Both the position numbers and the translations under genes were made by a program. From positions 5,007-69,006 of IMG/VR virus record IMGVR_UViG_3300043409_000868: a DNA stretch of 64,000 bases, one strand, 5' to 3'. Shown here piece by piece: positions 11,911-35,923 of this stretch. How positions within the stretch are numbered: position 1 is the stretch's first letter; every line of letters begins with the position of its first letter. The notes under the pieces were generated by a model. It did not search any database, was not told the origin of the DNA, and saw only the letters and a list, made by a program, of their open reading frames with translations. This DNA is from a virus.

Positions 11911-14900
11911 ATGAGTACTAAGAGTTGCGATATTTCTGATTTTATAAAAAACCTAACAGAACAATTAAATCCCGATGGAACTAGAAAATTTACAGATGAC
12001 CAAATTAAGGGAAAACTAAAAGTTGCTTACAAAAAGGGATATATTAGCCGTGCTCAAATTATCGCAGCCTCTGGCAAAGAAGATACTCTTATTTCAGAAA
12101 CTGAATTTAAAGAATTAGAAACTTTGACTGATTTACTCGTTAGTTCTAATAAACCATTGTTTGATGTCTTTTCTCCAGAACAGGCTAAACGTTTATTAGA
12201 GTTAACAAATAAAGCAAAAAATTCGGTTGGTTATGGTGAAGAAGGTAGATTAAATCAATCAAGACTTCAAGAAATTATTAATTTAGCATCAGAACGAACA
12301 CCAGAAACTTCAATTAGTATCTTAACTTTAGTTGATGAATCTATTCAAAGAGCTGAAAATAACGGAGATAAGAAAAGAGCAGCAGAACTTAGAGACTTAA
12401 AAGTTAGATTTCAAAAGATGAACGACTTGTCATCTAAGTTAAAGATTGATTGGAATGCTATTGTAAAGACAAACAAACAATCAGATAAACTAACAGCTGA
12501 ATATGCAATTGTTAGATCAATTTTAGATGTAGGTGATAGAGAGACAGCTGAAAAAAGAACTGTATTAAGTCAAAAAATACTTGCTGTAGTAGACGAACAA
12601 AAAACTATAATAAAAGATACTACAATATCCGAAGAAGAAAAGGTTAAGCCAGTAGCTAAATTAGAGGCAGAAAAACAAAACTTAGTTACACAACTAGAAG
12701 AAATCACATCTAAAAAGTTTGCAGTAAATAGAAAAAAATTAGAAAAAAGATTAAAGACAATAACCCATGAACTTAGGCGATTACAGGATAACGCTCCTAA
12801 TTCATTCTTAAATAAAATTTTAGTTACTGTAAGCGGAATGGACCCAGAGTTTGTTGTTACTAGTTTAAGAGAATTAAAAGAACGACAATTAAAAGTTGAA
12901 GACGATATTAAGTTAGTAGAGAAAGTTATTGAGCAGTATCCAACTGACAAAGAATTTTCTTTTCCAGAGTTAGAAAACTTAATTGGCGACGATATCTCTA
13001 CAACAAAATCAATTAAAAGTTATTTTTATGAGATTGATTTAGATGCAGATGGAAAACCAAGATTAGATTCATCTCTTAGGCCAATGAAAAAAAGAAAAGA
13101 GAAAATTACCTTTAGTGATATGAAGGCTATTGTTGACATTTGGAAAACTATTAAACGAAATAATTCATATGATTCTACAATTACAAATGTTGAAGCAAAT
13201 ATGATTAGAAACGCTTTATTAAGCGGAGATCAGAAATTAGTTAGTGAAGTTGATCCAGCAGATCCTTTACCTATTTCTAGGACTAACGCAGAAAGAATAA
13301 CGTTAAAAGTTGGTAAACAATATGATCCTCGAAAACTAGAAGATAGGGTTTCTGCTATTAAAGATTTACATGTAGCTTTAAAACGATTAAGTTATATCTC
13401 TTCTTTAGCAAACAATTCAGGAGTTATTTCAAGTGGAATGTTAGTTGGAGTGTTAGGATCTAATGCACAAAGCCTTAGTCATAAATTTGATAGCGCATTA
13501 GCTGATGATTCTGAGTTAAGTAATCCTTATATTCCAGAAGGTGAAACAACAAATGAAGGTCGTAGAGCTGTGTTAAGAGGACAATTAACTGCTTTAGGTT
13601 ATTCTGATTCTGACATTAATGCTATGCCAGAAATGCGCAATGAATATCATGATGATTTTACTAAAATTCTGGCTTTTGATCTTGAATGGGAAAAAGGAAC
13701 AAACAATATTATTGCTATTTCAATAGTAGAATTACTTAATGGAGAACCTACTCCAGTAAACTCTAGGGTAATTTATTCTACCGCTGGAAAAGATAAAAAT
13801 TTTAGTAAGGAAGATGCAGAAGAATTTTTACAATTAATACATAGATATCAGAATGAAGGTTTTAAAGTAACTGGACATAATATTCTTGGATCAGACTCAG
13901 ACGTACAGAAATTAGTATCTGTTTCTAAGAATACTAAATTAGGAATGTCTATTGCACTGAGATCTCTTGATACTATGCTTTTAGCGTTTAGGAATGGAGA
14001 TAAAACGTCATTTAGTAGAAACTTTGGTCCATCTTTAGATAATTTAGCGAAAGCTTTTAAAGTAGGTAGTAAAGCTGGTACTGGTATTACAGGAGAATCT
14101 GCACATGGTGTTTGGAAAAGTGGAGATTACTCTAAGTTTGAGGAATATATTCAAGGTGATTCTATCTTAGCTGCTCGTATTCTTCAAGAAATGTCAAAGA
14201 ATGAAGGTAAAGATATTAAGGTAATGAATTCTAGGAAACAAGAACAAACACTGCATATACACGAAACAGTTCCTATTTGGTACGATACAGGAAAACCAGA
14301 AATGGGAAGAAACCAAAGATATACTGGAGTAAATGTATTATATGATATTCAATCTTTTAATAACCTAAGAGAAAATGCTCAACAAACCATTTATGATAAT
14401 ACCTTATACGATATAGCTAAAGTTAGAAATGTAATGACTAATATGGTTTTAGGTTTAATGCGTACTAACAATGCTAAAGATATTGATACTTTATTTTCGG
14501 CAATTAATGCTTCTGAAACAGATGCATTAGAGAATATTGATATGGTAATGTCTATTTCAAGAGTTAATCACGAAGCTTATTTACCTATTCTACAACAAGT
14601 TAGAAATAGTAATGGTAATAGATTCTTATCCAACGCAGCTAGAGAAGAAAATGGAGATATATCATATACATACTGTGATAATGGTACAGATTATGAAAAC
14701 CAAGTTATTGAAGAAATATTTAATACACTAAGTGCATATAATAGAAAAGCTGAAAAAACTATTACACGCTTTGCTGAATTAGTTGGGTTTAGGGGAATAG
14801 GTGAAACAGAAAACTTAATAGATTTTACAAAGGCTTTATTTAGTTTTTCTGCACAAAAATTTAATAATAAAGAGAGCATAAAAATACAAGACTTTGGTAA

Positions 14901-17900
14901 TGGTATTTTTGACTATGTTTCAGCAGTTCAACTGGGTCGTGGTTTTTCACAAATTATGCTTGGTCATGTTGAGGAAGGTTTAACTTTATCTCAAAATATT
15001 AAAACTCCTGTAGAAGAAATTGATCGTATACGAGAAGTAGCAAAAATTGATGGAGAAGAGATTGCAGGAGAAGATAGTAGAAACTTAGTAGAAAAAAGAG
15101 AATATTTACCTATTACAAGACAAAACGTTAGTTACTTTGCTCCACTTAGTATGTACGAACAAGAACGAGCTTATAATGATTTTGCCTTACGAGAGAGATT
15201 TCATTATATCTTAAATAAAGATATTACAGATGATGATGTTAGAGAGTTTGAAAAATGGGTAGGTACAAACAAGATTGTTGAATTTAAAAACAACATTAAG
15301 GATAGACTTCGTTTACATAAACTCTTTAGAGAGGGATTAATAAAAACAGTAAATGATGTAAAACTCTTTATGTATGATTTAGGAATAGAATCTTTTACGG
15401 GATATGATCCTATTAGTATTATTCTTAATAAGGATTTAAGTAAAGATGAAAAGGTTAAGTTATTCTATGATGGAGCTTCTTTTGCTAAAAATGAGTTAGC
15501 AACTTATATGAAGGAGTTAGATAGAACTAGATTAGAACAAGGAAGAGTTCAGAATTATAATATTCTAATGATTGCCAATAATAGAGATATTTATAATAGA
15601 ATCCCTACATTAGAAGAAGTTAAAGAAATGTCACTAGAGGTTGCATTAGATCTTCCTCAAATGGTTGCTACTTGGGTACATGATTCACACAATACTAGAC
15701 CAGAAGAGAGACGACATCTAGAAGAAAAGAATTATTGGGAGATGTCGGAATTATCTTCTGGTGGGCCAACAGGAGCTGCTCTTTTAAGTGGCATTTATCC
15801 ACAAATAGCTTGGTACATGAGTCATCCTGAAATAACAAGTGATCCTAAAGCTATGGAACAATTAGTTTATAAATCATTGCAAAATGGTATAGCTGGTGGA
15901 TCTAGGTTTTCTAGGTCTTCTTACTGGGACGATGTCCAAAGTGGACATCACCATATTGTGGCTCTTCAATGGGCTTATTTTCCTGATGAATCTCATGTTC
16001 AAGAGGGTGGTTTATTACAGATTCTTGATAACATTAAGACTGGAAATGTAGGTCGTAGTGATCTAAAAGACTACTACAATGAAACCGCAAATGAGTTTGC
16101 TAAAGCTTTAGGTGAATTAACAAATGCTGCTATTATGAGAGGTGGATCTGACTCTAGTACAAATCCTGAATTAGCTCAAATTGAAAGAATAAATAATGCT
16201 TTAAATAGGAGCAATGAATCAAGAGAATTCTTTAAGGGTGCCGTTATTCCCGTATTTTATAGTGCAGGATTTAATGGTGTTCTTAAAGGATTAAGAGATA
16301 AACAAAAGAAAATGCCTGGAGATCCTATTTCAGAATTAAATGATGAAGACATTCAATTTATTGCTGCAAAACTTACTGTAACTGGAGCAATTGGTACTGG
16401 ACGATTAATAGATACAATTCTTGGCATGGATACAGAAAAGTCTAGAGAAATAATTAAGTTATTTGGAGAAGGAACAAAAAGATTAACTTTTGATATGAGA
16501 AAAAGATGGATTGATATAATGAATTTAGATAAGGATCTTAAGAATAATTATATTTCTGAAGATGCTGCTAGAGCAGGAATTAATCTTAGACTTCGTATGA
16601 TTGCTGAACTAACATTACCAGCTAGATACGAAACAACTAGATTTGAAAGAGAAGAGTGGATTAAAGATAGAGTAAAATTACTTACTGAAAAATGGAATAA
16701 AAGAATTGAAAACGGAATGGAAATTATTAGAAAGTCTGGTAAAAAAGGAGTAGAAGTCGGAAGTCAATCAGAAAGAGACTTTCATGTTGCATTAGCAGGA
16801 AATGAATCAGCCTTTAAAACACAAATGTCATTAATGGCAATTAATCAAATGCAGAATTCTGGTCTTAAGTTAAATTCTTCTGATAGAGATATATTAGAAG
16901 CATCAGTTAGAACTGGTAGATATATTGCTGAAGGTGATTTAATGTATGCTAATAATGTAGTATTTACTACAGTTGGTTTTGGTAGTGGTAGTGCTCGCGC
17001 TCAATATGTTGGTAATTATTTAACAAACTTACATGGCTCAAGACTAAGCAAAGGAAACCGAACAGTCTATAACGATGATCATTCTATTAACTGGGATGAG
17101 ACAATTAAAAATAGTGCTTGGAGTCTAGAAGGAAATCCACTAACTGGTAAACCAAGAAATGAAGCTATTGCAGAAATAGATAAACTAGCAGTAAAACATT
17201 ATCTTTTACAGGTTGCTACTGATTATGCCCCAACTATGATTGGTTATAATCAAGAGAATGAAAGTAGATCTAATTTCTTTAATCAATGGAAAAATAGAAC
17301 AAAACAAGAACGTGAATATGACTACATGGGTCGTATGAACGATGTTGCAAAACTAAAAACACTATATGAAACAGAAGATCCAACAACAAAAAGAACATTA
17401 ACAGACGCAGAAATTGAACTATCTATTGCTAGTAACTCAACTCCAATTAATAAGAGAATTGGAACTAGAATTTTAGCTGGTGATTTTGCGTCTCCCCATG
17501 ACGAAACTGTAATGTCTATGTCAGATGCCAAGGGATTGGCTGCGTTTAGACCAAGATTGGCTGATGATGCTTTTGACGATAGAATAGTTCATGGTTTATA
17601 CTCTATTTACCAAGGAACAAAACAATTAAATCTTGGAGTAGGTCGATTTAGATCTGCTGTGCAAAAACTAAAAGAAGACAATACAACTCCTGAATCTATT
17701 CTGGATATGGAAAACTCAAGAGCAACTCAATACGACCCTGAAGAACTAGGAGTATACTTTCCTGAAATAGACTCTTCTTTAACCCAAGAAATATTTGGAC
17801 AAAGACCAACATTTAATCAAAAACTAAATAAAATGAGATTTTTATTAGATACTTTTGGTATGCAGCACGGTTTACAAGAATTAGTTAAAGCAAAAGAATA

Positions 17901-20900
17901 TACTCGTTTGTATCAAATTTATAAAGTTAGACAGGCAATGAAAAAGTTTGCATTACTTCTTGGTGAAAGTAAAGATTCTAAATGGGATATGAGATTCTTA
18001 CATAGACACTTTATTCAACAAGTATTTAGAATAACAAAAGCCCAAAGAGATGCAAGTAATTCTTCTAGAAATCTCTTAAATTTCCTTAAGTCAATTGGAA
18101 TTGATCCTAGTCTATTTAAAGATGGATTTGGTAATAATCTTCACTGGATTGATACTCTTGGCATACTTGCTGACATGGGTATTGAAGAACTTAGTACTCT
18201 TAAGTTTGGAATGTCTCCAGTAGAAATGTTAACAACATCAACAACAGAAACTCCAAGTATATTAAAAAGTGGATCTACTATTGTTATGCCTAATGTAATT
18301 CAGGGTGAAGATGTTTCAGTTATTATTCAGAGTATATGGGCAGATGTAAGGGTCCAACAGAAAGCTACTGAATATGCTGATAGATTAGTTAGTGAAGGTA
18401 CTTTAAGTTCATATGAAAAAGATCCAACAGGAAAATATATTTTACTTGCTGCTGTACCTAAGGATATTCAAGTACAGATTGCACAAACTATATTTACAGA
18501 TGATGAATTGATTATGGATGTTGCAGAAAATCTTGGTTTACATGTAACTTTAGAGTTTGTAGCTGGCGAAAATATGCTTAGATTACAAGGATCTAAACTA
18601 CATGCTTCATCTTTGGGAGCATATGTTGTTCCACGAAGAGGACTAGGTTTTCCTTCTGCTAATCGAACAGTACTTGGTGAAAGAGATGTTAAAACCTATT
18701 TAACTCCAGAGGCTGTTAAATCAATTCTTTATTCTGCAAAAAATGCTAAGTTTTTTAGTAGATTAGAGACTGCTGTACAAGTAGATAAATACTTGGGGCA
18801 AACAACTATTGTTGATAGATTACGACAACAACAATATGGAGAATATCTTGATAGACATTTAGAGCAGATAGCCGAAGAAACCGAACTTTTAGAGGCTCTT
18901 GAAGAAGGTAAACTACAGAAATTAAGAACTGAAAGAATGAGGGATGAATTAGGTGTTGAATTAAATTTATATGACGCTGAAGCATACTTTACCTCAGAAG
19001 ATGAAATAACTGGATTAACCCCATTTAAAAATGCTATGTCATTGGATATGAGAATTGCTTATGAAAGAGCAAAACAATATCCACTTTTACAAGATGAAGC
19101 TGAGACATTAAGGAAATTAACAACCAAAGTAGAACATGAAAAACTTTTTTTACAAATTTCCTTTATAACTTTTCTTAGAAATAACGTAAGTGGAAAAGAA
19201 CTAACAGATCCTCAATTACGAATGCTTGTAAATGAGCATTTTGGATCAGAACTCACTAATTCAGAGTTTGAAAGCCTTATGAAAAACGCTAATGAAATTA
19301 CTGAAATTATAGATAGAATTAATTTCTCTCCATTTAAAGGTAAAAATCCATATTTAGCACAAGCTGTAAAACATAGACAAATGCTGTTATATGATCCTGA
19401 TGTTTTAAATGTAACTAGTGGATATAGAAGTCAAAATGATATTATTAATTTTATGGAAGAATTTGATATTCCAAGTAAGGACTATGAAATAGCAGCACAA
19501 GCAGTTATTGAAGCATACGCAATTACTAATCGTTCTGTTGGTAACGCAGAAACATATTTAACTATTCCAAGCAGTGATCTAGTTAATATAGCATCTGATC
19601 CAGATGAATTTGCTAGGGTATTCCCTAGTGGAAGTCACATTAATTCTCAATTATCAAAATTAGTGAAAGATGGGGTTATTGACGGAGAAACTGAAATATT
19701 TTATCGCCTCTTAATTGGTAAAATTTTAAAACATAATCCAAACTTAGCAAAATTCTTATCTATTGAATGTGATGACTTAAGTACTTCTAGATCTGCAGAA
19801 GCTGTTAAAGAAGATGATAGATTTATAATAAAACTTAATACAAAGTTATTAAAAAATATGGGTAGAATTGATCAGACAAGGGTATTTGCACATGAGATTT
19901 CCCATATTGCTCGTTTAGCTTTTATTGCCGATAACAGTCCTGAATGGAGAAAAGTAGAGTCTTTATTTAGATCTAAAAAGGGAAGAGACAGTATTCCTAC
20001 TATGTTACTTATTATGAATAATAATAGTAAATATGAAGGGTTTGATCAAGATGTAAAATACTATACTGAAAACGTAGAAGAATTTCTTGCTCAATGGGGA
20101 TCGTGGATTTTATTAGAAAAAGTATTTAATAATCCAGCTGTAATGCAAGCAATACAATCCAGGAGTACGGCAGCTTTATTTGCAAGTAATGCTTATAAAT
20201 CTTCATTTTATAGGATGCGAGATGAAGTTCTTAGTATTACAACTGGTTTAGCTGAAGTAGACGAAGGTGTATTATCTAGTATTTTAGATATAACAGAGAG
20301 TATGTTTGGATTTACTTCTTCTGTAGAAAGAACAATTCACGTTACAAATGCAAATCAAAAACTAGGGATGATAAGTAGTTTTGATACGCCATTATCTAGT
20401 AGAGAAGGAGAAGTAGATAAACTATCTAGCTTACAAAACAAAGTAAATGTTTCTGGCATTTCTTCTTTGACTGTAATTGAGCAGGCAGAATATAAAATTT
20501 TAACAAATAAATATAGCGTTTCTCCATTAAAGAATTTAGATATTGTAACATATAAAAAACTTAGAAGCACACGAGAATCTAGACAAGGAACTTCATTAGC
20601 TCTTCCGCATGTAAGGTCTAGTTCAGGTAAATTTCTAAGTACACTTGATGATTTAAAAACTCCAGAAAAATTAGAATTGGCTAATACTATAATTCTTGAG
20701 TCTATTAAACGGGGTGGAAAATTAGCTAGAAATTTAGGAACTGTTGGTGGATTAGCCCGAGAACAATCGGAAAAAATGTTTGGTAAAAAAGCTACTGAGA
20801 TGTTTTTAGTTAGTAGATATTTATTAGGAACATGGGATTTAACTCAAGCAAGTAAAACACATCAAAGCCAGAATATTGTAGTAGCTTCTTTAATGCACAT

Positions 20901-23900
20901 TATTGGTGAAACATTTAATAATACTGAGAATCAATATCAACAACAAACTGGTGCTCGTAGTATTCGAGAAAACAGAGCTTATTCTCAACAATGGATTGAC
21001 AGAGTTTCTTATGAAGTTGGTCAATTAAGAATTGAAACTACAGATGATGAGTTTAAAACTTTATTAAAATATGCACAAGAAGTTGCAACAGGAATGGGTC
21101 CAGTAGATCCACCAGGTATCTCAGCTGAGAAAATAGATCAAGCTAAAAAAGTAGGTAAAACCACTTTAAAAAATTCTAGACAACTTAGATTCTTTATTTA
21201 CGGAAAACTTGCAAAACTTTTTGAAGAAATTCCAGTTCAATTAGATAAATCATTATTTGGATCTAGGCAAATTAGTTCAGATCCCAATAAACAATTAGGG
21301 TTTGAAAAAAATAGACAAGATCTAATAGATGCAACTGCTAAACAAATTATAGAAAATGTAGAAACAGGTTCAATAAACGGTGCTTTGTTTTATGCAAGTG
21401 GTTTAGGACCTAAAATTAATAGATATTATGGTTATGATGATAAAACAGATTCAATTGATCCAGAATTTATTACGGAAATGAAACGAGTTCAAAATTCAAA
21501 TCCAGCTACGTTTAGGATGATTTCAGAAATTGCTGTAAGACAACTAGCTAATAGAGATAATTTAACTGAGGCTGAAGCATATAGAAAATTAAATCAATCA
21601 ATAAGTGATGGTTCTTTTTTAATTAATGGTTCTCCAACAATGCATAAAATTTGGCATGAATCTGCTTTAAAATTCTATAGTTTAATTAGTACCTATAAAC
21701 ATATTAGTCATGTAAATGATGGTATCAATAAAATAGCTAAATCTAACACCTTTAGTACTATATCGTTGAAGTATCTTGGAGAATGGGCAGATGAAATAAA
21801 CATAACTATAAATTCAAATGATGAAATAAGAACAGCTGGTCCTTTATTTGTACCTAATGGAAATCAATTCCTTCCAGATGGTGTTTCTAGTGTTACTAAA
21901 AAATCTACAATGTTATTAACAGGACAGAAACAAACTAAAATAGCAGATATCATGGCTGGTTTATTTTGGTCTGAAATGGGAGAACAACCAGATTACCTTA
22001 GGACAAATGAAATTATTACTGGTGCGCATATGAGACAAAACGAAGATATCAGTAAATTCTTACAGAATAGACTAGATAGTGTACTTGCTGATGTAGAACG
22101 TTCCAAGGGTTTTAGAGCTGCTTCTCGTATTGCTATTCAAGATATTACTGGAATAACTGGTTATGATATATACGATCTTATTTCTTTATTTAAACAAATA
22201 AGTGATAACTTTGAACCAAAAGAAAGAACAGAACTTTTAGATTCTCTAAAGGTAATTGAGCAAAAACTTCAGATTGAGCAAGGAATGAGTGCTAGGGGAT
22301 TAAACGATGAGGACGATCTTTACACTAATTTCTTCCTTAAGTGGGGACCTGATGTTACTAGATTAGCCTATGGTTCTAACTTGAATACGGCATCTTTAGT
22401 TATGGAAGGTGCTCTTGGTGCGTTAATTACAACTCGTTATGGAGGTAATCCAGTAACATTCTTTACAGATTTATTTGGTAGTGTCTTTGGAAACTTACCT
22501 AAAGCACTCTTTGGAGGAAGTACATACAACCCAAGAGGAGTAGCTGTAAATATGATGCGTGGTTTAGAACACTCTACAAGAAACGCTAGAGAAGTTGCAA
22601 CTCAACAAACAAACTATGTAGCTGATGGTGCGTCTAGATGGGAAAGATATAAGGCAATGATGTCAAGAGTTAACAATTCTATATTTAATGGAATTGCTGA
22701 AGGAATGACAAATCAAGCGCAAAACATTATAATTGATCACCTTAATAATGGAAATTTGTTTAAGATCAGGGATATGTTAGGCAAAGAGACGTTAAATAAT
22801 ATGGATGAATTAAAGGCAGCTTTAAATAAATACAATATTATTGGTATTCTACCCCATATGGTATTTGAATTAAAACAAGCTGGTATCTTTGAACCAAAAA
22901 TTTTAGAAGCTTATCAGTATATGTTAAATAACGTAAAGAGTAAGAAAATAAATAATGGTACTTTAGATTTTATTGCTGCAAACGAATGGAATGAAACCCA
23001 AAAATGGAACATACTACTCACTCATAAATTAGGGTTTGATAGAAATACAGCTTATCGTGCTGTAGCTAGTATGTATGAAGCTACAAAAAACTTTAGAAAT
23101 ATTGTATTAGTTGAGAATAATCCTTGGGATAGTAATACACATAGTGGTGGATTACGATTCTTAATGTCATTTTATAGACAATACCCTAATTTATTCTTTT
23201 CTCAAAAAGTAATGAGATTGGCTAATAAGGTAGACACAGGTACGTTTGCTGCTATGCTTATTAGCACTACAATCTTAGATTTACTATATAATGCTCTTTT
23301 ATTAGTTGCTCTTGGTGCTATACCCCTAGCAGCTCTGTATCCATTCTCAGATGAGTTTTTATTTAAGAAGAATCCATTAGCTGCTACTAGATTAATTCTT
23401 GGAAGAAATCCAATTTTTGGTCTTACTGGTAACTTAATTTTTGGAGCTTTGACTACTGGCTATCAGAATTATTTATCTATTAACAATGCTTATGCTAGGA
23501 AAAATAGATTTCAAGCACTAAAAAAATCAATTAAAACAGGGATTGATCAAACTGATTTAAGTATTGTTCCACAGCAAGCTGCTGAAACTTTAATTAAAGA
23601 TCCTATAACTATGATTATTCTTGGTTTAATTGCTGGTGGGAATATAAATGAAAAAGAAACATATGATATGCAGAATGCTGCTATAAATACTGGATCTAGA
23701 GTACTTCCAATTTTTGGTGAAATGGTTGTTAGAATTGGAGCTACAAGGGTACTAATAGGAGAAAACCCAAATCTCAAGAAACGTAGTAAAGTATCTCCAG
23801 GTATCAAACCTAATACTAAACCTAAGGGTCCAATTCAAGGATTACAAGCACCAAAGATTTCGTCTGCTAGTACTAATCCACTAACACCACCCGATTCATT

Positions 23901-23910
23901 AATAACCTAA
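11911..23910 (+). CDS. Giant (3999 aa) putative virion-ejected protein: DEDDy 3'-5' exonuclease, single-subunit RNAP-like module, zincin motif and hydrophobic gp16-like C-terminus
   Basis: Exonuclease motifs FDLEW / GHNILGSDSD / YIQGD. Motif A-like WDDVQSGHHH, then DYY, then motif B REFFKGAVIPVFYS. HEISH...EEFLA zincin motif. Confidence 0.7.
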   Translation: MSTKSCDISDFIKNLTEQLNPDGTRKFTDDQIKGKLKVAYKKGYISRAQIIAASGKEDTLISETEFKELETLTDLLVSSNKPLFDVFSPEQAKRLLELTNKAKNSVGYGEEGRLNQSRLQEIINLASERTPETSISILTLVDESIQRAENNGDKKRAAELRDLKVRFQKMNDLSSKLKIDWNAIVKTNKQSDKLTAEYAIVRSILDVGDRETAEKRTVLSQKILAVVDEQKTIIKDTTISEEEKVKPVAKLEAEKQNLVTQLEEITSKKFAVNRKKLEKRLKTITHELRRLQDNAPNSFLNKILVTVSGMDPEFVVTSLRELKERQLKVEDDIKLVEKVIEQYPTDKEFSFPELENLIGDDISTTKSIKSYFYEIDLDADGKPRLDSSLRPMKKRKEKITFSDMKAIVDIWKTIKRNNSYDSTITNVEANMIRNALLSGDQKLVSEVDPADPLPISRTNAERITLKVGKQYDPRKLEDRVSAIKDLHVALKRLSYISSLANNSGVISSGMLVGVLGSNAQSLSHKFDSALADDSELSNPYIPEGETTNEGRRAVLRGQLTALGYSDSDINAMPEMRNEYHDDFTKILAFDLEWEKGTNNIIAISIVELLNGEPTPVNSRVIYSTAGKDKNFSKEDAEEFLQLIHRYQNEGFKVTGHNILGSDSDVQKLVSVSKNTKLGMSIALRSLDTMLLAFRNGDKTSFSRNFGPSLDNLAKAFKVGSKAGTGITGESAHGVWKSGDYSKFEEYIQGDSILAARILQEMSKNEGKDIKVMNSRKQEQTLHIHETVPIWYDTGKPEMGRNQRYTGVNVLYDIQSFNNLRENAQQTIYDNTLYDIAKVRNVMTNMVLGLMRTNNAKDIDTLFSAINASETDALENIDMVMSISRVNHEAYLPILQQVRNSNGNRFLSNAAREENGDISYTYCDNGTDYENQVIEEIFNTLSAYNRKAEKTITRFAELVGFRGIGETENLIDFTKALFSFSAQKFNNKESIKIQDFGNGIFDYVSAVQLGRGFSQIMLGHVEEGLTLSQNIKTPVEEIDRIREVAKIDGEEIAGEDSRNLVEKREYLPITRQNVSYFAPLSMYEQERAYNDFALRERFHYILNKDITDDDVREFEKWVGTNKIVEFKNNIKDRLRLHKLFREGLIKTVNDVKLFMYDLGIESFTGYDPISIILNKDLSKDEKVKLFYDGASFAKNELATYMKELDRTRLEQGRVQNYNILMIANNRDIYNRIPTLEEVKEMSLEVALDLPQMVATWVHDSHNTRPEERRHLEEKNYWEMSELSSGGPTGAALLSGIYPQIAWYMSHPEITSDPKAMEQLVYKSLQNGIAGGSRFSRSSYWDDVQSGHHHIVALQWAYFPDESHVQEGGLLQILDNIKTGNVGRSDLKDYYNETANEFAKALGELTNAAIMRGGSDSSTNPELAQIERINNALNRSNESREFFKGAVIPVFYSAGFNGVLKGLRDKQKKMPGDPISELNDEDIQFIAAKLTVTGAIGTGRLIDTILGMDTEKSREIIKLFGEGTKRLTFDMRKRWIDIMNLDKDLKNNYISEDAARAGINLRLRMIAELTLPARYETTRFEREEWIKDRVKLLTEKWNKRIENGMEIIRKSGKKGVEVGSQSERDFHVALAGNESAFKTQMSLMAINQMQNSGLKLNSSDRDILEASVRTGRYIAEGDLMYANNVVFTTVGFGSGSARAQYVGNYLTNLHGSRLSKGNRTVYNDDHSINWDETIKNSAWSLEGNPLTGKPRNEAIAEIDKLAVKHYLLQVATDYAPTMIGYNQENESRSNFFNQWKNRTKQEREYDYMGRMNDVAKLKTLYETEDPTTKRTLTDAEIELSIASNSTPINKRIGTRILAGDFASPHDETVMSMSDAKGLAAFRPRLADDAFDDRIVHGLYSIYQGTKQLNLGVGRFRSAVQKLKEDNTTPESILDMENSRATQYDPEELGVYFPEIDSSLTQEIFGQRPTFNQKLNKMRFLLDTFGMQHGLQELVKAKEYTRLYQIYKVRQAMKKFALLLGESKDSKWDMRFLHRHFIQQVFRITKAQRDASNSSRNLLNFLKSIGIDPSLFKDGFGNNLHWIDTLGILADMGIEELSTLKFGMSPVEMLTTSTTETPSILKSGSTIVMPNVIQGEDVSVIIQSIWADVRVQQKATEYADRLVSEGTLSSYEKDPTGKYILLAAVPKDIQVQIAQTIFTDDELIMDVAENLGLHVTLEFVAGENMLRLQGSKLHASSLGAYVVPRRGLGFPSANRTVLGERDVKTYLTPEAVKSILYSAKNAKFFSRLETAVQVDKYLGQTTIVDRLRQQQYGEYLDRHLEQIAEETELLEALEEGKLQKLRTERMRDELGVELNLYDAEAYFTSEDEITGLTPFKNAMSLDMRIAYERAKQYPLLQDEAETLRKLTTKVEHEKLFLQISFITFLRNNVSGKELTDPQLRMLVNEHFGSELTNSEFESLMKNANEITEIIDRINFSPFKGKNPYLAQAVKHRQMLLYDPDVLNVTSGYRSQNDIINFMEEFDIPSKDYEIAAQAVIEAYAITNRSVGNAETYLTIPSSDLVNIASDPDEFARVFPSGSHINSQLSKLVKDGVIDGETEIFYRLLIGKILKHNPNLAKFLSIECDDLSTSRSAEAVKEDDRFIIKLNTKLLKNMGRIDQTRVFAHEISHIARLAFIADNSPEWRKVESLFRSKKGRDSIPTMLLIMNNNSKYEGFDQDVKYYTENVEEFLAQWGSWILLEKVFNNPAVMQAIQSRSTAALFASNAYKSSFYRMRDEVLSITTGLAEVDEGVLSSILDITESMFGFTSSVERTIHVTNANQKLGMISSFDTPLSSREGEVDKLSSLQNKVNVSGISSLTVIEQAEYKILTNKYSVSPLKNLDIVTYKKLRSTRESRQGTSLALPHVRSSSGKFLSTLDDLKTPEKLELANTIILESIKRGGKLARNLGTVGGLAREQSEKMFGKKATEMFLVSRYLLGTWDLTQASKTHQSQNIVVASLMHIIGETFNNTENQYQQQTGARSIRENRAYSQQWIDRVSYEVGQLRIETTDDEFKTLLKYAQEVATGMGPVDPPGISAEKIDQAKKVGKTTLKNSRQLRFFIYGKLAKLFEEIPVQLDKSLFGSRQISSDPNKQLGFEKNRQDLIDATAKQIIENVETGSINGALFYASGLGPKINRYYGYDDKTDSIDPEFITEMKRVQNSNPATFRMISEIAVRQLANRDNLTEAEAYRKLNQSISDGSFLINGSPTMHKIWHESALKFYSLISTYKHISHVNDGINKIAKSNTFSTISLKYLGEWADEINITINSNDEIRTAGPLFVPNGNQFLPDGVSSVTKKSTMLLTGQKQTKIADIMAGLFWSEMGEQPDYLRTNEIITGAHMRQNEDISKFLQNRLDSVLADVERSKGFRAASRIAIQDITGITGYDIYDLISLFKQISDNFEPKERTELLDSLKVIEQKLQIEQGMSARGLNDEDDLYTNFFLKWGPDVTRLAYGSNLNTASLVMEGALGALITTRYGGNPVTFFTDLFGSVFGNLPKALFGGSTYNPRGVAVNMMRGLEHSTRNAREVATQQTNYVADGASRWERYKAMMSRVNNSIFNGIAEGMTNQAQNIIIDHLNNGNLFKIRDMLGKETLNNMDELKAALNKYNIIGILPHMVFELKQAGIFEPKILEAYQYMLNNVKSKKINNGTLDFIAANEWNETQKWNILLTHKLGFDRNTAYRAVASMYEATKNFRNIVLVENNPWDSNTHSGGLRFLMSFYRQYPNLFFSQKVMRLANKVDTGTFAAMLISTTILDLLYNALLLVALGAIPLAALYPFSDEFLFKKNPLAATRLILGRNPIFGLTGNLIFGALTTGYQNYLSINNAYARKNRFQALKKSIKTGIDQTDLSIVPQQAAETLIKDPITMIILGLIAGGNINEKETYDMQNAAINTGSRVLPIFGEMVVRIGATRVLIGENPNLKKRSKVSPGIKPNTKPKGPIQGLQAPKISSASTNPLTPPDSLIT

Positions 23911-24116: not shown

Positions 24117-24151
24117 CAGCCAATCCCTCATGCTTTCGTAAGAGAGCATGA

Positions 24152-24197
24152 GGATGTTAGCTGTCGCTAACAAACGTACCTATGCGTTACATAGGAT
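24152..24197 (+). repeat. 46-nt intergenic direct repeat A, copy 1 (two hairpins)
   Basis: GGATGTTAGCTGT(C/T)GCTAACAAACGTACCTATGCGTTACATAGGAT, repeated at 24361-24406. Confidence 0.9.
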
Positions 24198-24360: not shown

Positions 24361-24406
24361 GGATGTTAGCTGTTGCTAACAAACGTACCTATGCGTTACA
24401 TAGGAT
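24361..24406 (+). repeat. 46-nt intergenic direct repeat A, copy 2
   Basis: One mismatch to copy 1. Confidence 0.9.
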
Positions 24407-24681: not shown

Positions 24682-24734
24682 GTAGCTAAGAGGCTACCCA
24701 AGCTCCCTAGGGAAACCTAGGGAGCGAAGGGCTG
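24682..24734 (+). repeat. 53-nt intergenic direct repeat B, copy 1 (GAAA-tetraloop hairpin)
   Basis: GTAGCTAAGAGGCTACCCAAGCTCCCTAGGGAAACCTAGGGAGCGAAGGGCTG, repeated at 24967-25019. Confidence 0.9.
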
Positions 24735-24791
24735 TATCTTAACAGCACATGTGTACCTATGCACTACATAGGATATTTCAAGGAGATCCAA

Positions 24792-28192: not shown

Positions 28193-28193
28193 G

Positions 28194-33446: not shown

Positions 33447-33470
33447 TATCGTCCCCTTCGGGGACCATTG
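33447..33470 (+). promoter_or_regulatory. Candidate phage promoter, hairpin motif copy 3 (directly upstream of the main RNAP)
   Basis: TATCGTCCCC-TTC-GGGGACCATTG. Confidence 0.7.
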
Positions 33471-33487
33471 TGACACAAAGGAGAACA

Positions 33488-35923
33488 ATGCTAGAATCTT
33501 GGCATAAATTAAGTGTGGAAGAAAAGTCTCGTAGAACAACAATGCAAAAGATCTACGAGGAAGAGTTGCTTGAAAATGGTGTTGAAAAATATTGGAAAGA
33601 GTATGGTAGGTCACCTGATGAAGGTAAGCCAGAACAACTGCTACTTGAATCAGCTGTAATACATCTCACTCCTTATTACCAAAAATGGATTGATGAATGT
33701 TGTAGTAATCGTAAGTCACCTGATTGGCTAGCACCTTTACTTAGTATTGGTGCAGCTAAGATGGCAGATATTACTCTTCGATCAATGATGAGATTGTTTC
33801 TAACAAGAAATACAATCCAAAGTTTTGATGATACAATGGGTATCCCAGCTAATGCTCCTGTTGCTCAACAAGTAGCAAAGCTTATCTCTGAGGATGTTGT
33901 ATCTATTGTTGCTTATCAACAAGCAAAGAAACGATTCTCTGAAGATTGGCGTAAGCAATCTAAGTTCATTAAGAACTGGACTGTTAAGCGGTGCAAAGCA
34001 TTTACATCTAAAGTTGCTAAGATCCCTAAGCTAAGGCCTAAGGAGAAAGAAGACTTTGGTCACAACATGCTTAGAGTTGCCCTCTCTAGTGATATCCTCA
34101 CTAGTAGGATTCATTGGAATGGTAAAAATAAAAAGTCATTACTAGTATCTTTCTCTCCTTGGATCTTATGTGAAATCCAAAAGAGACATGAGCTACTAGA
34201 GACAGCTTGCCTTGTTTACAGGCCAATGATCTCACCACCCATCCCACATACAACTAAAGAAGATGGTGGGTTTCTCAGCCCCTGGGTGCGTAAGAAGATG
34301 ATCAAGAGATATCATCCTGTTGGAGCAGATCCAAAGGAGTGGGACTCAAGACCATCCCCTATGGTTCTTAAAGGTCTTAATGCTTTAATGGAAACAGAGT
34401 GGTCAGTTAACACTCAAGTCTACCAAGTCATGAAGACTATGTTTGAGAATGATTATAAGGCTGCTAACATTCCTGCATACACATTCAGAGACTATGCTTT
34501 CTCTAGGGAGTATCCCATTGATGGGACCAAAGAAGAGAAAGCTAAGTGGATGCAAGAATCTAATGAAGCATGGGGCGAGTGGTATAAGGAAGAACAATCA
34601 CGATCTAGAATGATCGTTAGATTAGAGTTGGCAAGAAAGATGATTCAATGGAACTTCTTTTATATGCCATACACCCTTGACTTTAGAGGACGTACCTATT
34701 CGGTATGTGAACTTCTATCTCCTCAAGGTATTGACTTTGATCGAGGACTTGTTCACTTTGGAATGCCACGTAAACAAACTAAAGAAGGTTTGTATTGGTT
34801 GTATGTCCATGTAGCAAATCTATTTGATCAAGACAAGAAACCATTTGACCACCGTGTTAAATGGGTTAAAGATAATATGGATCTCTTCCTCCGTATTGCT
34901 GATGATCCATATGCTAATAAAGAATGGATTGATCCAAGTAAGAAGAAGAATAAATCATTTCAAAGATTGGCTGCTATCTTTGAGGTATGCAGGACAGATG
35001 GACTAACACAACTCCCTGTTCAAATGGATGGTGCAAATAATGGTGGTCAACATTGGGCTGCTATTATGCGTAATAAGAAACTTGGTATCCTAACTAATCT
35101 TATTAAAACAGAAAAGCCACAAGATCTCTATCAGTATGTAGCTGATGCTGCTACTGAGTTTATGAAAGAGAATCCAACTAATAGATGGTATCCTGCATTT
35201 CTAGAGTATTGGGATAATAGACTTCCTCGTAGTGTAACTAAGCGTTCTACTATGTGTGATGCTTATGGTCTTACATTCTATGGTATGCAGAAATATGTCA
35301 AGCAAGAGGGTCATGTAGATTGGGTAAGTAAAGAACAAAGAGGTGGAGCTGTAGTAGAACTAGCTCGCGCTATCCAAGTTGGCCTAGGTGAGACAATGCA
35401 ATCGCCTAACCTAGGCAAAGTTTGGCTACGAGAAGTAGCTACTATTCTTAACTCTTTAAACAAACCTTTTGTATGGACTACACCTAGTGGCTTTGAGGTA
35501 CATCATGTTTATAATCAAATACTTGAACGAGTCAGTTATGCTGAGTTGTTTAATCGTCAGCAACTTGTTTTCAGCACTGTTACGGAAGACCTTAATGGTA
35601 AAGCACAATATCTTGCAATTTCTCCAAACTATATCCATTCGCTAGATGCTGCTCATATGTTTATGACAATTTCTAGGATGTTAGATACAGGTATGAGTGC
35701 CTTTTCATTTGTCCATGATTCTTATGGAACATATGCACCTGACATTCCTGTCATGCATAAGCTATTGCGAGAAGAATTCATCAAGATTCATAAGGAGAAT
35801 CAACTTGAAAACCTCAAAAAAGAAATTGAAAAAAGATATGGAATCTATCTCCCCGAAGTCCCCACCCAAGAAGAAGGTTTTGACCTCCAAGAAGTCGTTG
35901 AATCAGAATACTTCTTCGCTTAA
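33488..35923 (+). CDS. T7-like single-subunit DNA-directed RNA polymerase
   Basis: DFRGR, motif A MDGANNGGQH, motif B RSVTKRSTMCDAYG, PNYIHSLDAAH, motif C VHDSY. AAGGAG SD before ATG 33488. Confidence 0.97.
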   Translation: MLESWHKLSVEEKSRRTTMQKIYEEELLENGVEKYWKEYGRSPDEGKPEQLLLESAVIHLTPYYQKWIDECCSNRKSPDWLAPLLSIGAAKMADITLRSMMRLFLTRNTIQSFDDTMGIPANAPVAQQVAKLISEDVVSIVAYQQAKKRFSEDWRKQSKFIKNWTVKRCKAFTSKVAKIPKLRPKEKEDFGHNMLRVALSSDILTSRIHWNGKNKKSLLVSFSPWILCEIQKRHELLETACLVYRPMISPPIPHTTKEDGGFLSPWVRKKMIKRYHPVGADPKEWDSRPSPMVLKGLNALMETEWSVNTQVYQVMKTMFENDYKAANIPAYTFRDYAFSREYPIDGTKEEKAKWMQESNEAWGEWYKEEQSRSRMIVRLELARKMIQWNFFYMPYTLDFRGRTYSVCELLSPQGIDFDRGLVHFGMPRKQTKEGLYWLYVHVANLFDQDKKPFDHRVKWVKDNMDLFLRIADDPYANKEWIDPSKKKNKSFQRLAAIFEVCRTDGLTQLPVQMDGANNGGQHWAAIMRNKKLGILTNLIKTEKPQDLYQYVADAATEFMKENPTNRWYPAFLEYWDNRLPRSVTKRSTMCDAYGLTFYGMQKYVKQEGHVDWVSKEQRGGAVVELARAIQVGLGETMQSPNLGKVWLREVATILNSLNKPFVWTTPSGFEVHHVYNQILERVSYAELFNRQQLVFSTVTEDLNGKAQYLAISPNYIHSLDAAHMFMTISRMLDTGMSAFSFVHDSYGTYAPDIPVMHKLLREEFIKIHKENQLENLKKEIEKRYGIYLPEVPTQEEGFDLQEVVESEYFFA

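What the first reader, a model, noticed from the sequence alone, without database searches (positions are those of the whole stretch)
15520..17510. Hidden RNAP-like module in the 3999 aa virion protein, with motif C possibly permuted
Seen: WDDVQSGHHHI (Asp codon 15928) aligns with T7 motif A FDGSCSGIQHF. KDYY follows like T7 QDIY, and REFFKGAVIPVFYSAG (16222-16269) fits motif B RxxxKx7Y. EQGRVQ upstream resembles the T/DxxGR motif. No clear motif C lies at the normal distance. Candidates are SPHDET (~17491, far downstream) or WVHDSH (15673-15690), which is UPSTREAM of motif A. Inference: a highly diverged virion RNAP, a circularly permuted palm, or an inactive RNAP-derived scaffold.
Basis: partly seen in the sequence, partly recalled or inferred. 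Interest (0 to 1): 0.85.

Follow-up and report, generated by a model that had tools for sequence, protein, structure and literature searches.

The report
Reordered RNA polymerase in giant phage protein
A 3999-residue protein of an uncultured 69-kb T7-like phage hides a T7/N4-type RNA polymerase core whose conserved catalytic blocks are all present but encoded in an unusual order, which suggests a new kind of injected "starter" polymerase.

Summary
In 47 homologues of about 4000 aa at roughly 20% identity, H1257-D1258 (VHDS), D1340/G1345 (motif A), D1387 (DYY), K1442 (motif B) and R1696 never change. SPHDET is not conserved. EQGR is conserved only in the close subgroup.

An AlphaFold model of residues 1196-1990 (pLDDT 74.9) puts H-D at the tip of a beta-hairpin, D1340 at the end of a strand and K1442 in a helix. 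A fold search of 48,161 chains gave only T7 RNAP (Z 9.6) and human mitochondrial RNAP (Z 9.2) at Z>=8, both aligned from motif A onward.

Profile comparison finds T7's conserved blocks in the order C, A-B, AINxxQN, T/DxxGR-NPQG. T7 has AINxxQN, T/DxxGR, A-B, C. This is a block rearrangement, not a simple circular permutation.

Three hairpin repeats lie just downstream of the gene. They recur with a compensatory change in two relatives and resemble N4 early promoters.

Best reading, 0.6: an active virion RNA polymerase with reordered motifs that starts a cascade through the phage's own T7-like RNAP. No model coordinates were available, so closeness of the two aspartates in 3D is not shown.

The parts
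11911..23910 (+). Giant ORF, 3999 aa, holding the module
   Evidence: About 4000-aa homologues only in metagenomes. No tblastn match in 50,697 phage records for residues 1-1200, 1204-1867 or 2401-3999.
15496..17880 (+). RNAP-like module as modelled (residues 1196-1990)
   Evidence: AlphaFold2 model m0965c3cc84e0: pLDDT 74.9, pTM 0.67. VIA-align hits to T7 RNAP, POLRMT and yeast mtRNAP at Z 8.2-10.2.
15649..15711 (+). Motif-C-like beta-hairpin, residues 1247-1267 (LDLPQMVATWV-HD-SHNT). H1257-D1258 are at codons 15679-15684.
   Evidence: H and D invariant in 47 of 47 rows. Model strands 58-61 and 64-67 flank H62-D63, block pLDDT 77-79. hhalign to T7 803-821: E 0.028 forward, 0.025 reverse over the whole protein family.
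15916..15957 (+). Motif A, residues 1336-1349 (SSYWDDVQSGHHHI). D1340 is at 15928-15930.
   Evidence: D1340 and G1345 invariant, H1347 39 of 40. Model strand 143-145 then a helix. Structural alignments begin at model 140-143 ~ T7 531-535.
16069..16077 (+). DYY, residues 1387-1389, matching T7 QDIY and N4 D610-x-Y612
   Evidence: D1387 invariant in A4. Aligned to N4 DLY. N4-like family invariants D610 and Y612.
16222..16269 (+). Motif B, residues 1438-1453 (R-x3-K-x7-Y-x2-G)
   Evidence: K1442 43 of 43, Y1450 Y 39 / F 3 of 42, G1453 37 of 41. In model helix 242-254, pLDDT 81-91. N4 motif-B sub-profile finds 1437-1462 as best hit in the whole protein, E 0.018. The T7 motif-B sub-profile alone does not find it.
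16825..16914 (+). 'AINxxQN' block, residues 1639-1668 (MSLMAINQMQNSGLKLN...), matching T7 315-342
   Evidence: hhalign E 1.1e-4 forward, 1e-4 reverse. 0 of 13 null templates reach the score.
16954..17082 (+). T/DxxGR + NPQG-like block, residues 1682-1724. R1696 is at 16996-16998.
   Evidence: R1696 invariant in 47 of 47. hhalign to T7 412-446 E 3.8e-4 and to N4 413-444 E 4.8e-3. Reverse searches both E 2.4e-4. Model strands 488-495 and 502-505.
15535..15552 (+). Rejected as the family motif.
   Evidence: Conserved only in the close subgroup. Distant homologues are alignable only from about residue 1216-1225 on.
17488..17505 (+). Rejected.
   Evidence: Not conserved in 13 rows. Nearby D1885 is D in only 27 of 38.
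24152..24197 (+). Hairpin repeat 1 (GTTAGC..GCTAAC, then CCTATG-N5-CATAGG), followed by AGGAG and a small ORF. Candidate vRNAP promoter.
   Evidence: ssDNA fold -10.8 kcal/mol, z -4.25
24361..24406 (+). Hairpin repeat 2
   Evidence: z -3.95
24729..24774 (+). Hairpin repeat 3. The first hairpin has a different sequence (GCTGT..ACAGC); the second is conserved.
   Evidence: z -2.41
33470..35923 (+). The phage's own canonical T7-like RNAP (817 aa). Proposed second stage of the cascade.
   Evidence: phrog_414, E 3.6e-150. Canonical DFRGR / DGANNGGQH / R..K..Y-G / VHDSYGT in normal order. Present in 5 of 5 related complete genomes at 64-82% identity.

Best explanation
Residues ~1196-1990 of the 3999-aa protein form a catalytically competent, very diverged member of the T7/N4 single-subunit (Pol I-type, right-hand) RNA polymerase superfamily. 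Its palm elements are encoded in a non-canonical order. The motif-C hairpin (H1257-D1258) comes first. Next come motif A (D1340), the fingers with DYY and motif B (R1438/K1442/Y1450). After that come the 'AINxxQN' block and the T/DxxGR-NPQG hairpin (R1696).

Inferred mechanism, by analogy with N4 gp50: the giant protein is packaged in the capsid and ejected with the DNA. It then transcribes the first genes from three hairpin-type promoters that lie immediately downstream of its own gene. The phage's canonical T7-like RNAP, encoded ~9.6 kb further on, takes over afterwards. The phage would then not need host RNA polymerase.

What is shown: the fold of the motif A-to-fingers part, the invariance of the catalytic-type residues, and the block order.

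What is inferred: that the two aspartates come together in 3D, that the enzyme is active, that it is packaged in the virion, and that the hairpins are promoters.
For: (1) Invariance. H1257, D1258, D1340, G1345, D1387, K1442 and R1696 are unchanged in 47 of 47 sequences that are only ~20% identical to the window's protein (counts).

(2) Model. Residues 1196-1990 give pLDDT 74.9 and pTM 0.67. H-D sits at a beta-hairpin tip, D1340 ends a strand that is followed by a helix, K1442 lies in a helix, and R1696 lies between strands.

(3) Fold search. Of 48,161 chains only T7 RNAP 3e2e_A (Z 9.6, rmsd 3.6, 128 aligned, model 143-310 ~ T7 534-690) and POLRMT 9mn4_E (Z 9.2, 153 aligned) reach Z>=8. N4 mini-vRNAP scores Z 5.5. 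In the second look, rows 1-11 are all single-subunit RNAPs (Z 8.2-10.2) and the next row is Z 5.3.

(4) hhalign against a 9-sequence T7-like profile. The four top local hits are four conserved T7 blocks: 1682-1724 ~ T7 412-446, 1639-1668 ~ T7 315-342, 1337-1464 ~ T7 535-653, and 1247-1267 ~ T7 803-821. 0 of 13 null templates reach the real score for each block. In reverse searches over the whole ~4000-column family profile, 4 of 5 T7 blocks and 2 of 5 N4 blocks land on the same places.

(5) Spacing. The spacing matches the N4-like invariants D559/G564, D610-x-Y612 and R666-K670-Y678-G681. Ours are D1340/G1345, D1387-x-Y1389 and R1438-K1442-Y1450-G1453.

(6) Context. TerL, portal, scaffold and capsid genes are T7-like. 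The giant gene is the last of three very large genes after TerL.

(7) Hairpin repeats. Three CCTATG-N5-CATAGG hairpins are found where 0.13 are expected. Each sits upstream of an RBS, a small ORF and a terminator-like hairpin. The same element occurs 3 and 4 times downstream of the giant gene in two relatives, with an A-T to G-C compensatory change (60 of 60 cells paired; 2 of 500 shuffles reach the score).

(8) A natural precedent for splitting the fold. N4 RNAPII is split between the DX2GR part and the A-B-C part, so the fold tolerates a break there (PMC4496689, passages read).
Against: - No sequence method links the protein to any RNAP at conventional significance. There is no Pfam, PHROG or PDB-sequence hit for the module.
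- The hhalign E-values are single-comparison values of 1e-4 to 0.03, with probabilities of 56% or less.
- Foldseek found nothing. T7 RNAP was at rank 34 with E 1.9.
- The C block alone is weak: E 0.025-0.028 against T7, and no hit against the N4 profile.
- The T7 motif-B sub-profile, and the N4 A, C and block-1 sub-profiles, do not find their places when used alone.
- The structural alignments cover only motif A through the fingers. No coordinates were available, so the D1258-D1340 distance and the make-up of the palm sheet were not measured.
- A palindrome with symmetric changes could equally be the operator of a dimeric repressor.
- In 5 more distant genomes, hairpin-bearing repeats were seen downstream of the giant gene in 3 (with other sequences) and not in 2.
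- Virion packaging is unsupported by any direct data.
Confidence: 0.6

Rival explanations
1. It is an RNAP-type module in canonical order. The true motif C would lie downstream of motif B (for example D1501 in 'LIDTILG' or D1676), and the upstream H-D hairpin would have another role.
For: D1501 is D in 36 of 39 and D1676 in 35 of 37. The 'LIDTILG' region 1497-1518 is the second-best hit of the T7 motif-C sub-profile.
Against: That second hit has E 0.91, against 0.025 for the H-D hairpin. Neither Asp is invariant, whereas H1257-D1258 are 47 of 47. In the model D1501 sits in a short helix and D1676 in a turn before the strands, not on a hairpin. Even with this choice of motif C, the T/DxxGR block still lies after motif B, so the order would still be non-canonical.
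Confidence: 0.12
2. It is an RNAP-derived but catalytically dead structural or ejection module (a scaffold) that kept the fold only.
For: No activity data exist. The motif order is unusual. The giant protein evolves fast: the module is ~20-25% identical between genomes whose T7-like RNAP is 64-82% identical.
Against: Against that fast divergence, exactly the residues that are catalytic in T7/N4 are the invariant ones: both Asp, Lys and Tyr of motif B, and Arg of T/DxxGR. The exonuclease-like motifs of the same protein have decayed in one lineage, which shows that unused motifs are not kept.
Confidence: 0.12
3. It is a family A-type DNA polymerase or primer-extending enzyme, not an RNA polymerase. 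A DEDDy-like exonuclease domain lies upstream, as in Pol I.
For: Exo I/II/III-like motifs are at residues 589-750. One homologue carries PF10108. The Pol I-type palm and fingers are shared by both enzyme classes.
Against: The best structural matches are RNAPs only. No DNA polymerase I-type chain is among the 50 rows shown in either list. The profile matches are to RNAP-specific blocks: T/DxxGR-NPQG, AINxxQN and D-x3-SG-x2-H. The phage has a separate family A DNAP at 43143..44987. The exo motifs are lost in P0011 while the polymerase motifs stay.
Confidence: 0.08
4. The motif resemblances are chance, or the H-D...D...H pattern marks an HD-domain phosphohydrolase or another unrelated helical domain.
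For: Individual motif matches are short. Sequence searches give no significant hit. The model is largely helical, and for helical models a middling Z is common (note).
Against: The top 11 rows are all single-subunit RNAPs, separated by a gap (Z 8.2 versus 5.3) from everything else, and they align from the invariant Asp onward. Four independent blocks each beat 13 of 13 nulls. The H-D lies on a predicted beta-hairpin, not in a helix as in HD domains. SAMHD1 appears only at rank 47, Z 3.2, on another segment.
Confidence: 0.05

Closest known systems
Coliphage N4 virion RNA polymerase gp50 (mini-vRNAP, PDB 2PO4/3Q0A/9PNQ; Schitoviridae)
   Same: A giant (~3500 versus 3999 aa) phage protein with a central, very diverged T7-type polymerase core. 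Motif spacing is the same: D/G, D-x-Y, R-x3-K-x7-Y-x2-G. There are three hairpin elements at the start of the early region. A second, T7-like RNAP is encoded by the phage (N4 RNAPII; PMC4496689).
   Different: - No detectable sequence homology by HMMER or tblastn.
- Structural Z only 5.1-5.5.
- N4 has the canonical order T/DxxGR-A-B-C; this protein has C-A-B-block1-T/DxxGR.
- N4's 'ExDGxxxG' reads Y-x-D-x4-G here.
- The phage backbone is T7-like, not N4-like.
- Extra exonuclease-like and HExxH segments are present.
T7 RNA polymerase and mitochondrial RNAPs (POLRMT, Rpo41)
   Same: These are the best structural matches (Z 8.2-10.2) from motif A through the fingers. The best profile matches are for AINxxQN, T/DxxGR-NPQG, D-x3-SG-x2-H and HDS.
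   Different: The block order is rearranged. Only ~15 residues separate the AINxxQN block from the T/DxxGR block, where T7 has its ~80-residue thumb (T7 numbering). There is no Pfam PF00940 hit. The module is embedded in a 3999-aa protein.
N4 RNAPII (gp15 + gp16), a naturally split T7-like RNAP
   Same: It shows that the N-terminal/thumb/DX2GR part and the palm-fingers A-B-C part can be separate polypeptides (PMC4496689, passages). That is the same boundary at which the order differs here.
   Different: N4 RNAPII is two proteins of 269 and 404 aa in canonical gene order. Here the parts are one chain with the DX2GR part after the A-B part and motif C in front.
Permuted C-A-B palm of birnavirus and permutotetravirus RNA-dependent RNA polymerases (recalled from the literature, not from a call)
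   Same: The motif C hairpin is encoded upstream of motif A, while the palm is thought to keep its 3D arrangement.
   Different: That is an unrelated polymerase class (RdRp, RRM-type palm of RNA viruses). No such permutation turned up in my searches for Pol I-type DNA-dependent RNAPs.
Other virion RNAPs fused to giant proteins: crAss-like phi14:2 gp66 and Thermus phage P23-45 tape-measure-fused RNAP (seen as search listings and abstracts)
   Same: A giant, virion-delivered protein with a hidden polymerase that transcribes pre-early genes, followed by a second phage RNAP.
   Different: Those are two-barrel (multisubunit-type, DFDxD) polymerases. This one is a right-hand Pol I-type enzyme.

Membership tests
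T7-like single-subunit RNA polymerase superfamily | Motif A: strand ending in the catalytic Asp, followed by x3-SG-x2-H | tested here: met
   D1340 and G1345 are invariant in 47 of 47. Structural alignments start at model 140-143 ~ T7 531-535. hhalign 1337-1403 ~ T7 534-585, E 7.7e-3.
T7-like single-subunit RNA polymerase superfamily | Motif B: R-x3-K-x7-Y-G on the O-helix | tested here: met
   R/K1438, K1442 43 of 43, Y1450 39 Y + 3 F of 42. In a helix with pLDDT 81-91. The N4 motif-B sub-profile hits 1437-1462, E 0.018. The T7 motif-B sub-profile alone missed it.
T7-like single-subunit RNA polymerase superfamily | Motif C: H-D at the tip of a beta-hairpin, next to the motif A Asp in the palm | tested here: inconclusive
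   Invariant H1257-D1258 on a predicted hairpin. Best match to T7 802-821, E 0.025-0.028. Closeness to D1340 in 3D could not be measured because no coordinates were available.
T7-like single-subunit RNA polymerase superfamily | T/DxxGR motif followed by NPQG | tested here: met
   R1696 is invariant. 1682-1724 ~ T7 412-446, E 3.8e-4. Reverse searches with T7 and N4 sub-profiles both give E 2.4e-4.
T7-like single-subunit RNA polymerase superfamily | Canonical collinear order T/DxxGR - A - B - C | tested here: not met
   The order here is C (1247-1267), A (1336-1349), B (1438-1453), AINxxQN (1639-1668), T/DxxGR (1682-1724). It is the same in all 47 aligned sequences.
T7-like single-subunit RNA polymerase superfamily | Recognised by the curated family model (Pfam RNA_pol) or by PDB sequence search | tested here: not met
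   No Pfam family at E<=1 other than a weak SprT-like match elsewhere in the protein. No PHROG. No RNAP in PDB sequence searches with the protein or the profile.
T7-like single-subunit RNA polymerase superfamily | DNA-templated RNA synthesis | not testable with these tools
   Needs a biochemical assay.
N4-like virion RNA polymerase (Schitoviridae gp50) | Sequence homology to mini-vRNAP, and the 'ExDGxxxG' motif used to define the family (PMC10654107, passage) | tested here: not met
   tblastn and HMMER give no link. Whole-profile hhalign is only E 0.0025, and that hit is on the T/DxxGR block. Motif A reads Y-W-D-D-V-Q-S-G here.
N4-like virion RNA polymerase (Schitoviridae gp50) | N4-type genome backbone (N4 TerL, portal and so on) | tested here: not met
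   TerL matches T7-type terminases at 36-38% identity (Autographiviridae and relatives). The portal is phrog_449.
N4-like virion RNA polymerase (Schitoviridae gp50) | Packaged in the virion and injected; transcribes early genes from DNA hairpin promoters | not testable with these tools
   Only indirect evidence: position in the late gene block, and three hairpin repeats downstream of the gene with compensatory change in relatives.
Family A DNA polymerase | Pol I-type motifs (DYSQIELR-type A, HDE-type C) and structural match to Pol I-type DNAPs | tested here: inconclusive
   No DNA polymerase I-type chain is among the 50 rows shown, and the motifs are of the RNAP type. No DNAP profile was compared directly.

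The most novel reading that the evidence does not exclude
This would be the first natural Pol I-type (right-hand) DNA-dependent RNA polymerase whose palm is assembled from sequence blocks in rearranged order (C - A - B - AINxxQN - T/DxxGR). It would define a new, so far uncultured clade of giant virion RNA polymerases. These would have replaced the host-RNAP-dependent early promoters of a T7-like phage with hairpin promoters of their own, giving a fully host-independent two-polymerase cascade.
Probability: 0.5. Interest if true: 0.88.

Novelty: new variant of a known kind. Interest (0 to 1): 0.8.

Why it matters
Single-subunit RNAPs (T7, mitochondrial, N4) are textbook enzymes and major biotechnology tools, and all described members share one motif order.

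- A natural family with the blocks reshuffled would show how much topological freedom the right-hand fold has. It would also suggest an evolutionary route, namely splitting as in N4 RNAPII followed by re-fusion.
- It would add a very divergent polymerase-promoter pair to the orthogonal transcription toolbox.
- Biologically, it would mean that a whole clade of ~67-70 kb T7-like environmental phages injects its own starter polymerase. That strategy is so far known for N4-like, crAss-like, phiKZ-like and P23-45-like phages, but not for T7 relatives.
- It also shows that motif-order-dependent or HMM-based screens miss such enzymes. The N4-like survey read here filtered on ExDGxxxG.

Tried and rejected
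- SPHDET as motif C: rejected as not conserved.
- EQGRVQ as the family's T/DxxGR: conserved only in the close subgroup.
- D1885 ('PRLAD') as motif C: D in only 27 of 38.
- Simple circular permutation: the observed order is not a rotation of the T7 order.
- HD-domain reading: the H-D is on a predicted hairpin and the fold hits are RNAPs.
- Direct sequence links: Pfam, PHROGs and PDB phmmer/hmmsearch gave nothing for the module.
- tblastn against phage records: no match for three parts of the protein.
- Foldseek against PDB: no match at E<=0.001.
- First AlphaFold job (residues 800-1990, 10 rows): too poor to use, pLDDT 52.5.
- Whole-family alignment A4: too large for the fold server and too divergent for locus finding. 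Sub-family alignments were used instead.
- Single-protein locus search with P0032: found nothing.
- T7 motif-B sub-profile, and N4 block-1, A and C sub-profiles, searched alone over the full-length family: did not hit the proposed places.
- Sigma-70 promoter scan of 23850-25250: 1 site against 2.5 expected.
- The CCTRTG hairpin sequence was not seen in five more distant genomes. Three of them have other hairpin-bearing repeats and two have none evident.
- Literature searches for a permuted single-subunit RNAP, or for this phage group, found nothing relevant.
- Supplementary files of papers were not consulted, so the supplementary tables of the N4-like survey (PMC10654107) could list related contigs that I could not see.
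Full report
**Setting.** The window is bases 5007-69006 of a 69,006-bp IMG/VR virus record rated complete. All long ORFs are on the + strand. PHROG matches give the following:
- a T7-type large terminase (1620-3281)
- a T7-type portal (49683-51293)
- scaffold and major capsid genes (60456-62815)
- a primase-helicase, a family A DNA polymerase and a ribonucleotide reductase
- a canonical 817-aa T7-like RNA polymerase (33470-35923; phrog_414, E 3.6e-150)

TerL is 36-38% identical to terminases of T7-like podophages. After TerL come ORFs of 232, 1400, 1228 and 3999 aa. The 3999-aa ORF (11911-23910) holds the finding.

**Observation.** Translation confirms every string at the stated coordinates. 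The whole protein has no Pfam, PHROG or PDB-sequence match in the region of interest. The only hits are a weak HExxH (HtpX/SprT-like) match near residue 2661. tblastn of residues 1204-1867, 1-1200 and 2401-3999 against 50,697 phage records found nothing.

**Family.**
- A word-indexed search found 10 proteins at E<=0.001 among 1871 scored candidates. Nine are about 4000 aa.
- A profile of residues 800-1990 searched against 1.84 billion cluster representatives found 47 proteins at E<=1e-3 (34 at E<=1e-30). Most are about 4000 aa.
- Two further searches added ten more.
- The contigs reach 66-70 kb.
- Distant members conserve residues ~1205-1990 and a separate block at ~820-1120.

In a 47-row alignment the window's module is only ~18-26% identical to the distant rows. 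The invariant columns are P1249, H1257, D1258, G1284, D1340, G1345, D1387, K1442, R1696 and G1875.

Counts from an independent HMM-based alignment:

| Residue | Count |
|---|---|
| H1257 | 39 of 39 |
| D1258 | 39 of 39 |
| D1340 | 40 of 40 |
| K1442 | 43 of 43 |
| Y1450 | 39 Y + 3 F of 42 |
| D1387 | 38 D + 2 E of 40 |
| D1501 | 36 of 39 |
| D1676 | 35 of 37 |
| D1885 | 27 of 38 |

EQGR is kept only in the close subgroup.

**Structure.** A first model (residues 800-1990, 10 rows) was poor, with pLDDT 52.5. I gathered sub-ranges from 29 further loci plus 12 full-length homologues. The second model, of residues 1196-1990, reached pLDDT 74.9 and pTM 0.67.

In this model (model residue = protein residue minus 1195):
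- Strands 58-61 and 64-67 form a hairpin with H62-D63 at the tip.
- Strand 143-145 ends at D145 (D1340) and is followed by a helix.
- K247 (K1442) lies in helix 242-254.
- R501 (R1696) lies between strands 488-495 and 502-505.

Fold searches:
- Foldseek against the PDB gave no match at E<=0.001.
- VIA-align against 48,161 representative chains gave exactly two chains with Z>=8. They are T7 RNAP 3e2e_A (Z 9.6, rmsd 3.6, 128 aligned, model 143-310 ~ T7 534-690) and human mitochondrial RNAP 9mn4_E (Z 9.2, rmsd 4.7, 153 aligned).
- In the same search N4 mini-vRNAP scored Z 5.5, N4 gp50 Z 5.1 and yeast mtRNAP Z 4.9.
- In the second look at Foldseek's 808 alignable candidates, rows 1-11 are all single-subunit RNAPs: eight T7 entries at Z 9.6-10.2, two yeast mtRNAP entries at 9.6, and POLRMT at 8.2. 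The next row is Z 5.3.

All these alignments start at the motif A strand and run through the fingers. The model is largely helical and 795 residues long, so by the tool's own notes a Z near 10 is not overwhelming. What persuades me is the clean separation from unrelated rows and the register on the invariant Asp.

**Block order.** I built two comparison profiles:
- N4-like: N4 plus six Schitoviridae mini-vRNAP segments.
- T7-like: T7, LUZ100, HTVC142P, H4/4, Spp16, P-SCSP1p, YZ2, vB_Pae_S1 and the window's own RNAP.

Both were compared with a 30-row alignment of the module. Against the T7-like profile, the four best local alignments are four conserved T7 blocks:

| Window protein | T7 residues | Block | E (sub-profile) |
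|---|---|---|---|
| 1682-1724 | 412-446 | T/DxxGR plus NPQG | 3.8e-4 |
| 1639-1668 | 315-342 | 'AINxxQN' | 1.1e-4 |
| 1337-1464 | 535-653 | motif A through B | 7.7e-3, for 1337-1403 |
| 1247-1267 | 803-821 | motif C, 'hHDS' | 0.028 |

Against the N4-like profile:
- The A-B segment aligns over 127 columns (1332-1461 ~ N4 548-689, E 6.6e-3).
- The T/DxxGR block aligns 1684-1718 ~ N4 413-444 (E 4.8e-3).

Controls:
- For each of the four blocks, 0 of 13 reversed or column-shuffled T7-like templates reach the real score.
- With N4-like templates this holds for three blocks. The C block fails (1 of 13).

Reverse searches, using T7 or N4 sub-blocks against the ~4000-column full-length family profile:
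- 4 of 5 T7 blocks land on the same places. Block 1 gives E 1e-4, T/DxxGR 2.4e-4, A 0.041 and C 0.025. Motif B alone missed.
- 2 of 5 N4 blocks land there. T/DxxGR gives 2.4e-4 and B 0.018. Block 1, A and C missed.

These E-values are for single comparisons and the hhalign probabilities stay at or below 56%. Each block alone is suggestive, and the set together with the fold result is what carries the argument.

The resulting order is C, A, DYY, B, AINxxQN, T/DxxGR. T7 and N4 have AINxxQN, T/DxxGR, A, D-x-Y, B, C. This is not a rotation of the canonical order. It amounts to exchanging the two palm hairpins around the A-fingers unit.

The window's own T7-like RNAP has the canonical order and serves as an internal control.

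N4 RNAPII is naturally split between the DX2GR part (gp15) and the A-B-C part (gp16) (PMC4496689, passages read). A break at that boundary is therefore tolerated. A route through splitting and re-fusion is conceivable, but that is my inference.

**Catalytic readiness.** The spacing of the invariant residues matches the invariants of the N4-like family:

| N4-like family | This family |
|---|---|
| D559 / G564 | D1340 / G1345 |
| D610-x-Y612 | D1387-x-Y1389 |
| R666-K670-Y678-G681 | R1438-K1442-Y1450-G1453 |
| R424, then N432-P433-Q434 ... K437 ... R440 | R1696, then a P-x-G-S-x-L-S segment |

In N4, K437 and R440 bind the initiating nucleotide. Exactly these residues resist change while the rest of the module has drifted to ~20% identity, which argues for an active enzyme. 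By contrast, the exonuclease-like motifs of the same protein are lost in one lineage.

**Context and proposed mechanism.** The 1.2 kb just downstream of the giant gene has no long ORF. It contains three copies of a 46-nt element (24152, 24361, 24729) with two tandem hairpins.
- The second hairpin, CCTATG-N5-CATAGG, occurs three times where 0.13 are expected. 0 of 100 shuffles reach three.
- As single-stranded DNA the elements fold at -10.8, -10.8 and -8.9 kcal/mol (z -4.25, -3.95 and -2.41).
- Each is followed by a Shine-Dalgarno-like sequence, a small ORF and a terminator-like hairpin.
- Only one sigma-70-like site was found, against 2.5 expected.
- Relatives whose giant protein is ~50% identical carry 3 (L002) and 4 (L003) copies of the same element, again just downstream of their giant gene. 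Half of the ten copies read CCTGTG...CACAGG.
- All 60 of 60 stem cells pair. One pair shows a double change in 5 of 10 copies. 2 of 500 shuffles reach the covariation score.

This mirrors the three hairpin promoters used by N4 vRNAP, but a palindromic operator would show the same symmetry. Five more distant complete genomes do not have this sequence. Three have other hairpin-bearing repeats in the same place and two have none evident.

All five of those genomes carry the T7-like RNAP 8-11 kb downstream of the giant gene, at 64-82% identity.

I therefore propose the following:
1. The giant protein is packaged and ejected.
2. It transcribes the early region from the hairpin elements.
3. Transcription is then handed over to the T7-like RNAP.

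Packaging, activity and promoter function are inferences.

**Comparison and novelty.**
- It works like N4 gp50, but it fails the N4 membership tests: sequence homology, the ExDGxxxG motif and the N4 backbone.
- It shares fold and motifs with T7-type RNAPs, but it fails canonical order and curated-model recognition.
- The N4-like metagenome survey I read in passages filtered on N4 hallmarks and ExDGxxxG.
- My literature searches found no report of a reordered single-subunit RNAP or of this phage group. Supplements were closed.
- The C-A-B permutation of birnavirus RdRps is a recalled analogy, not a tested one.

**Limits.**
The indirect evidence is invariance, hairpin geometry and the profile match.

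Noticed in passing
window 13675-14163 (residues 589-751 of the giant protein): There is a DEDDy-type 3'-5' exonuclease-like segment: FDLEW, GHNILGSDSD, YIQGD. The motifs are kept in 8 of 9 close homologues and lost in P0011. One homologue (P0010) carries Pfam PF10108. An exonuclease upstream of a Pol I-type core recalls family A DNA polymerases.
   Followed up: partly
window 19885-19914 (residues 2659-2668): The zincin-like HExxH motif (FAHEISHIAR) is invariant in 9 of 9 close homologues, with weak HtpX/SprT/M48-like matches. In one distant subfamily the consensus reads FAEELVHIAR, so the first His is not kept.
   Followed up: partly
window 27820-27846, 28193-28219, 33446-33472, 36324-36350: There are four copies of a 27-nt element with a GTCCCC-TTCG-GGGGAC hairpin. 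The third copy ends at the GTG start of the T7-like RNAP gene. They could be promoters, processing sites or terminators of the second transcription stage.
   Followed up: no
window 24001-28000: A GC-rich island (GC 0.48-0.51, against 0.31-0.42 elsewhere) holds a 607-aa ORF (25105-26928) with no Pfam or PHROG match and many overlapping antisense ORFs.
   Followed up: no
window 27624-27689: An 11-nt tandem repeat (ATACCCATACC-like, about 6 units) lies in the early region.
   Followed up: no
window 24682-24747 and 24967-25032: Two copies of a 66-nt element hold several hairpins, including CTCCCTAGG-GAAA-CCTAGGGAG. They sit after the second and third small early ORFs and look like terminators.
   Followed up: no
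window 10736-11791 (in the 1228-aa ORF) and 53397-54025 (389-aa tail fibre ORF): The protein just upstream of the giant gene has Ala/Pro/Glu-rich 9-12-nt periodic repeats. The tail fibre gene has collagen-like Gly-X-Y repeats.
   Followed up: no
L053-L057 versus L015, L025, L026, L035, L037: Across five complete related genomes the T7-like RNAP is 64-82% identical to the window's, while the polymerase module of the giant protein is only ~20-25% identical. The putative virion enzyme evolves far faster than the second-stage enzyme.
   Followed up: partly
window 14368-15270 (residues ~820-1120): A second block is conserved across the whole family (DFGNGxFDY, QLGRGFxQ, PLSxxEQER) upstream of the polymerase module. 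It was modelled at pLDDT 70-85 in places but has no assigned fold. It might supply the thumb or a promoter-binding domain.
   Followed up: no
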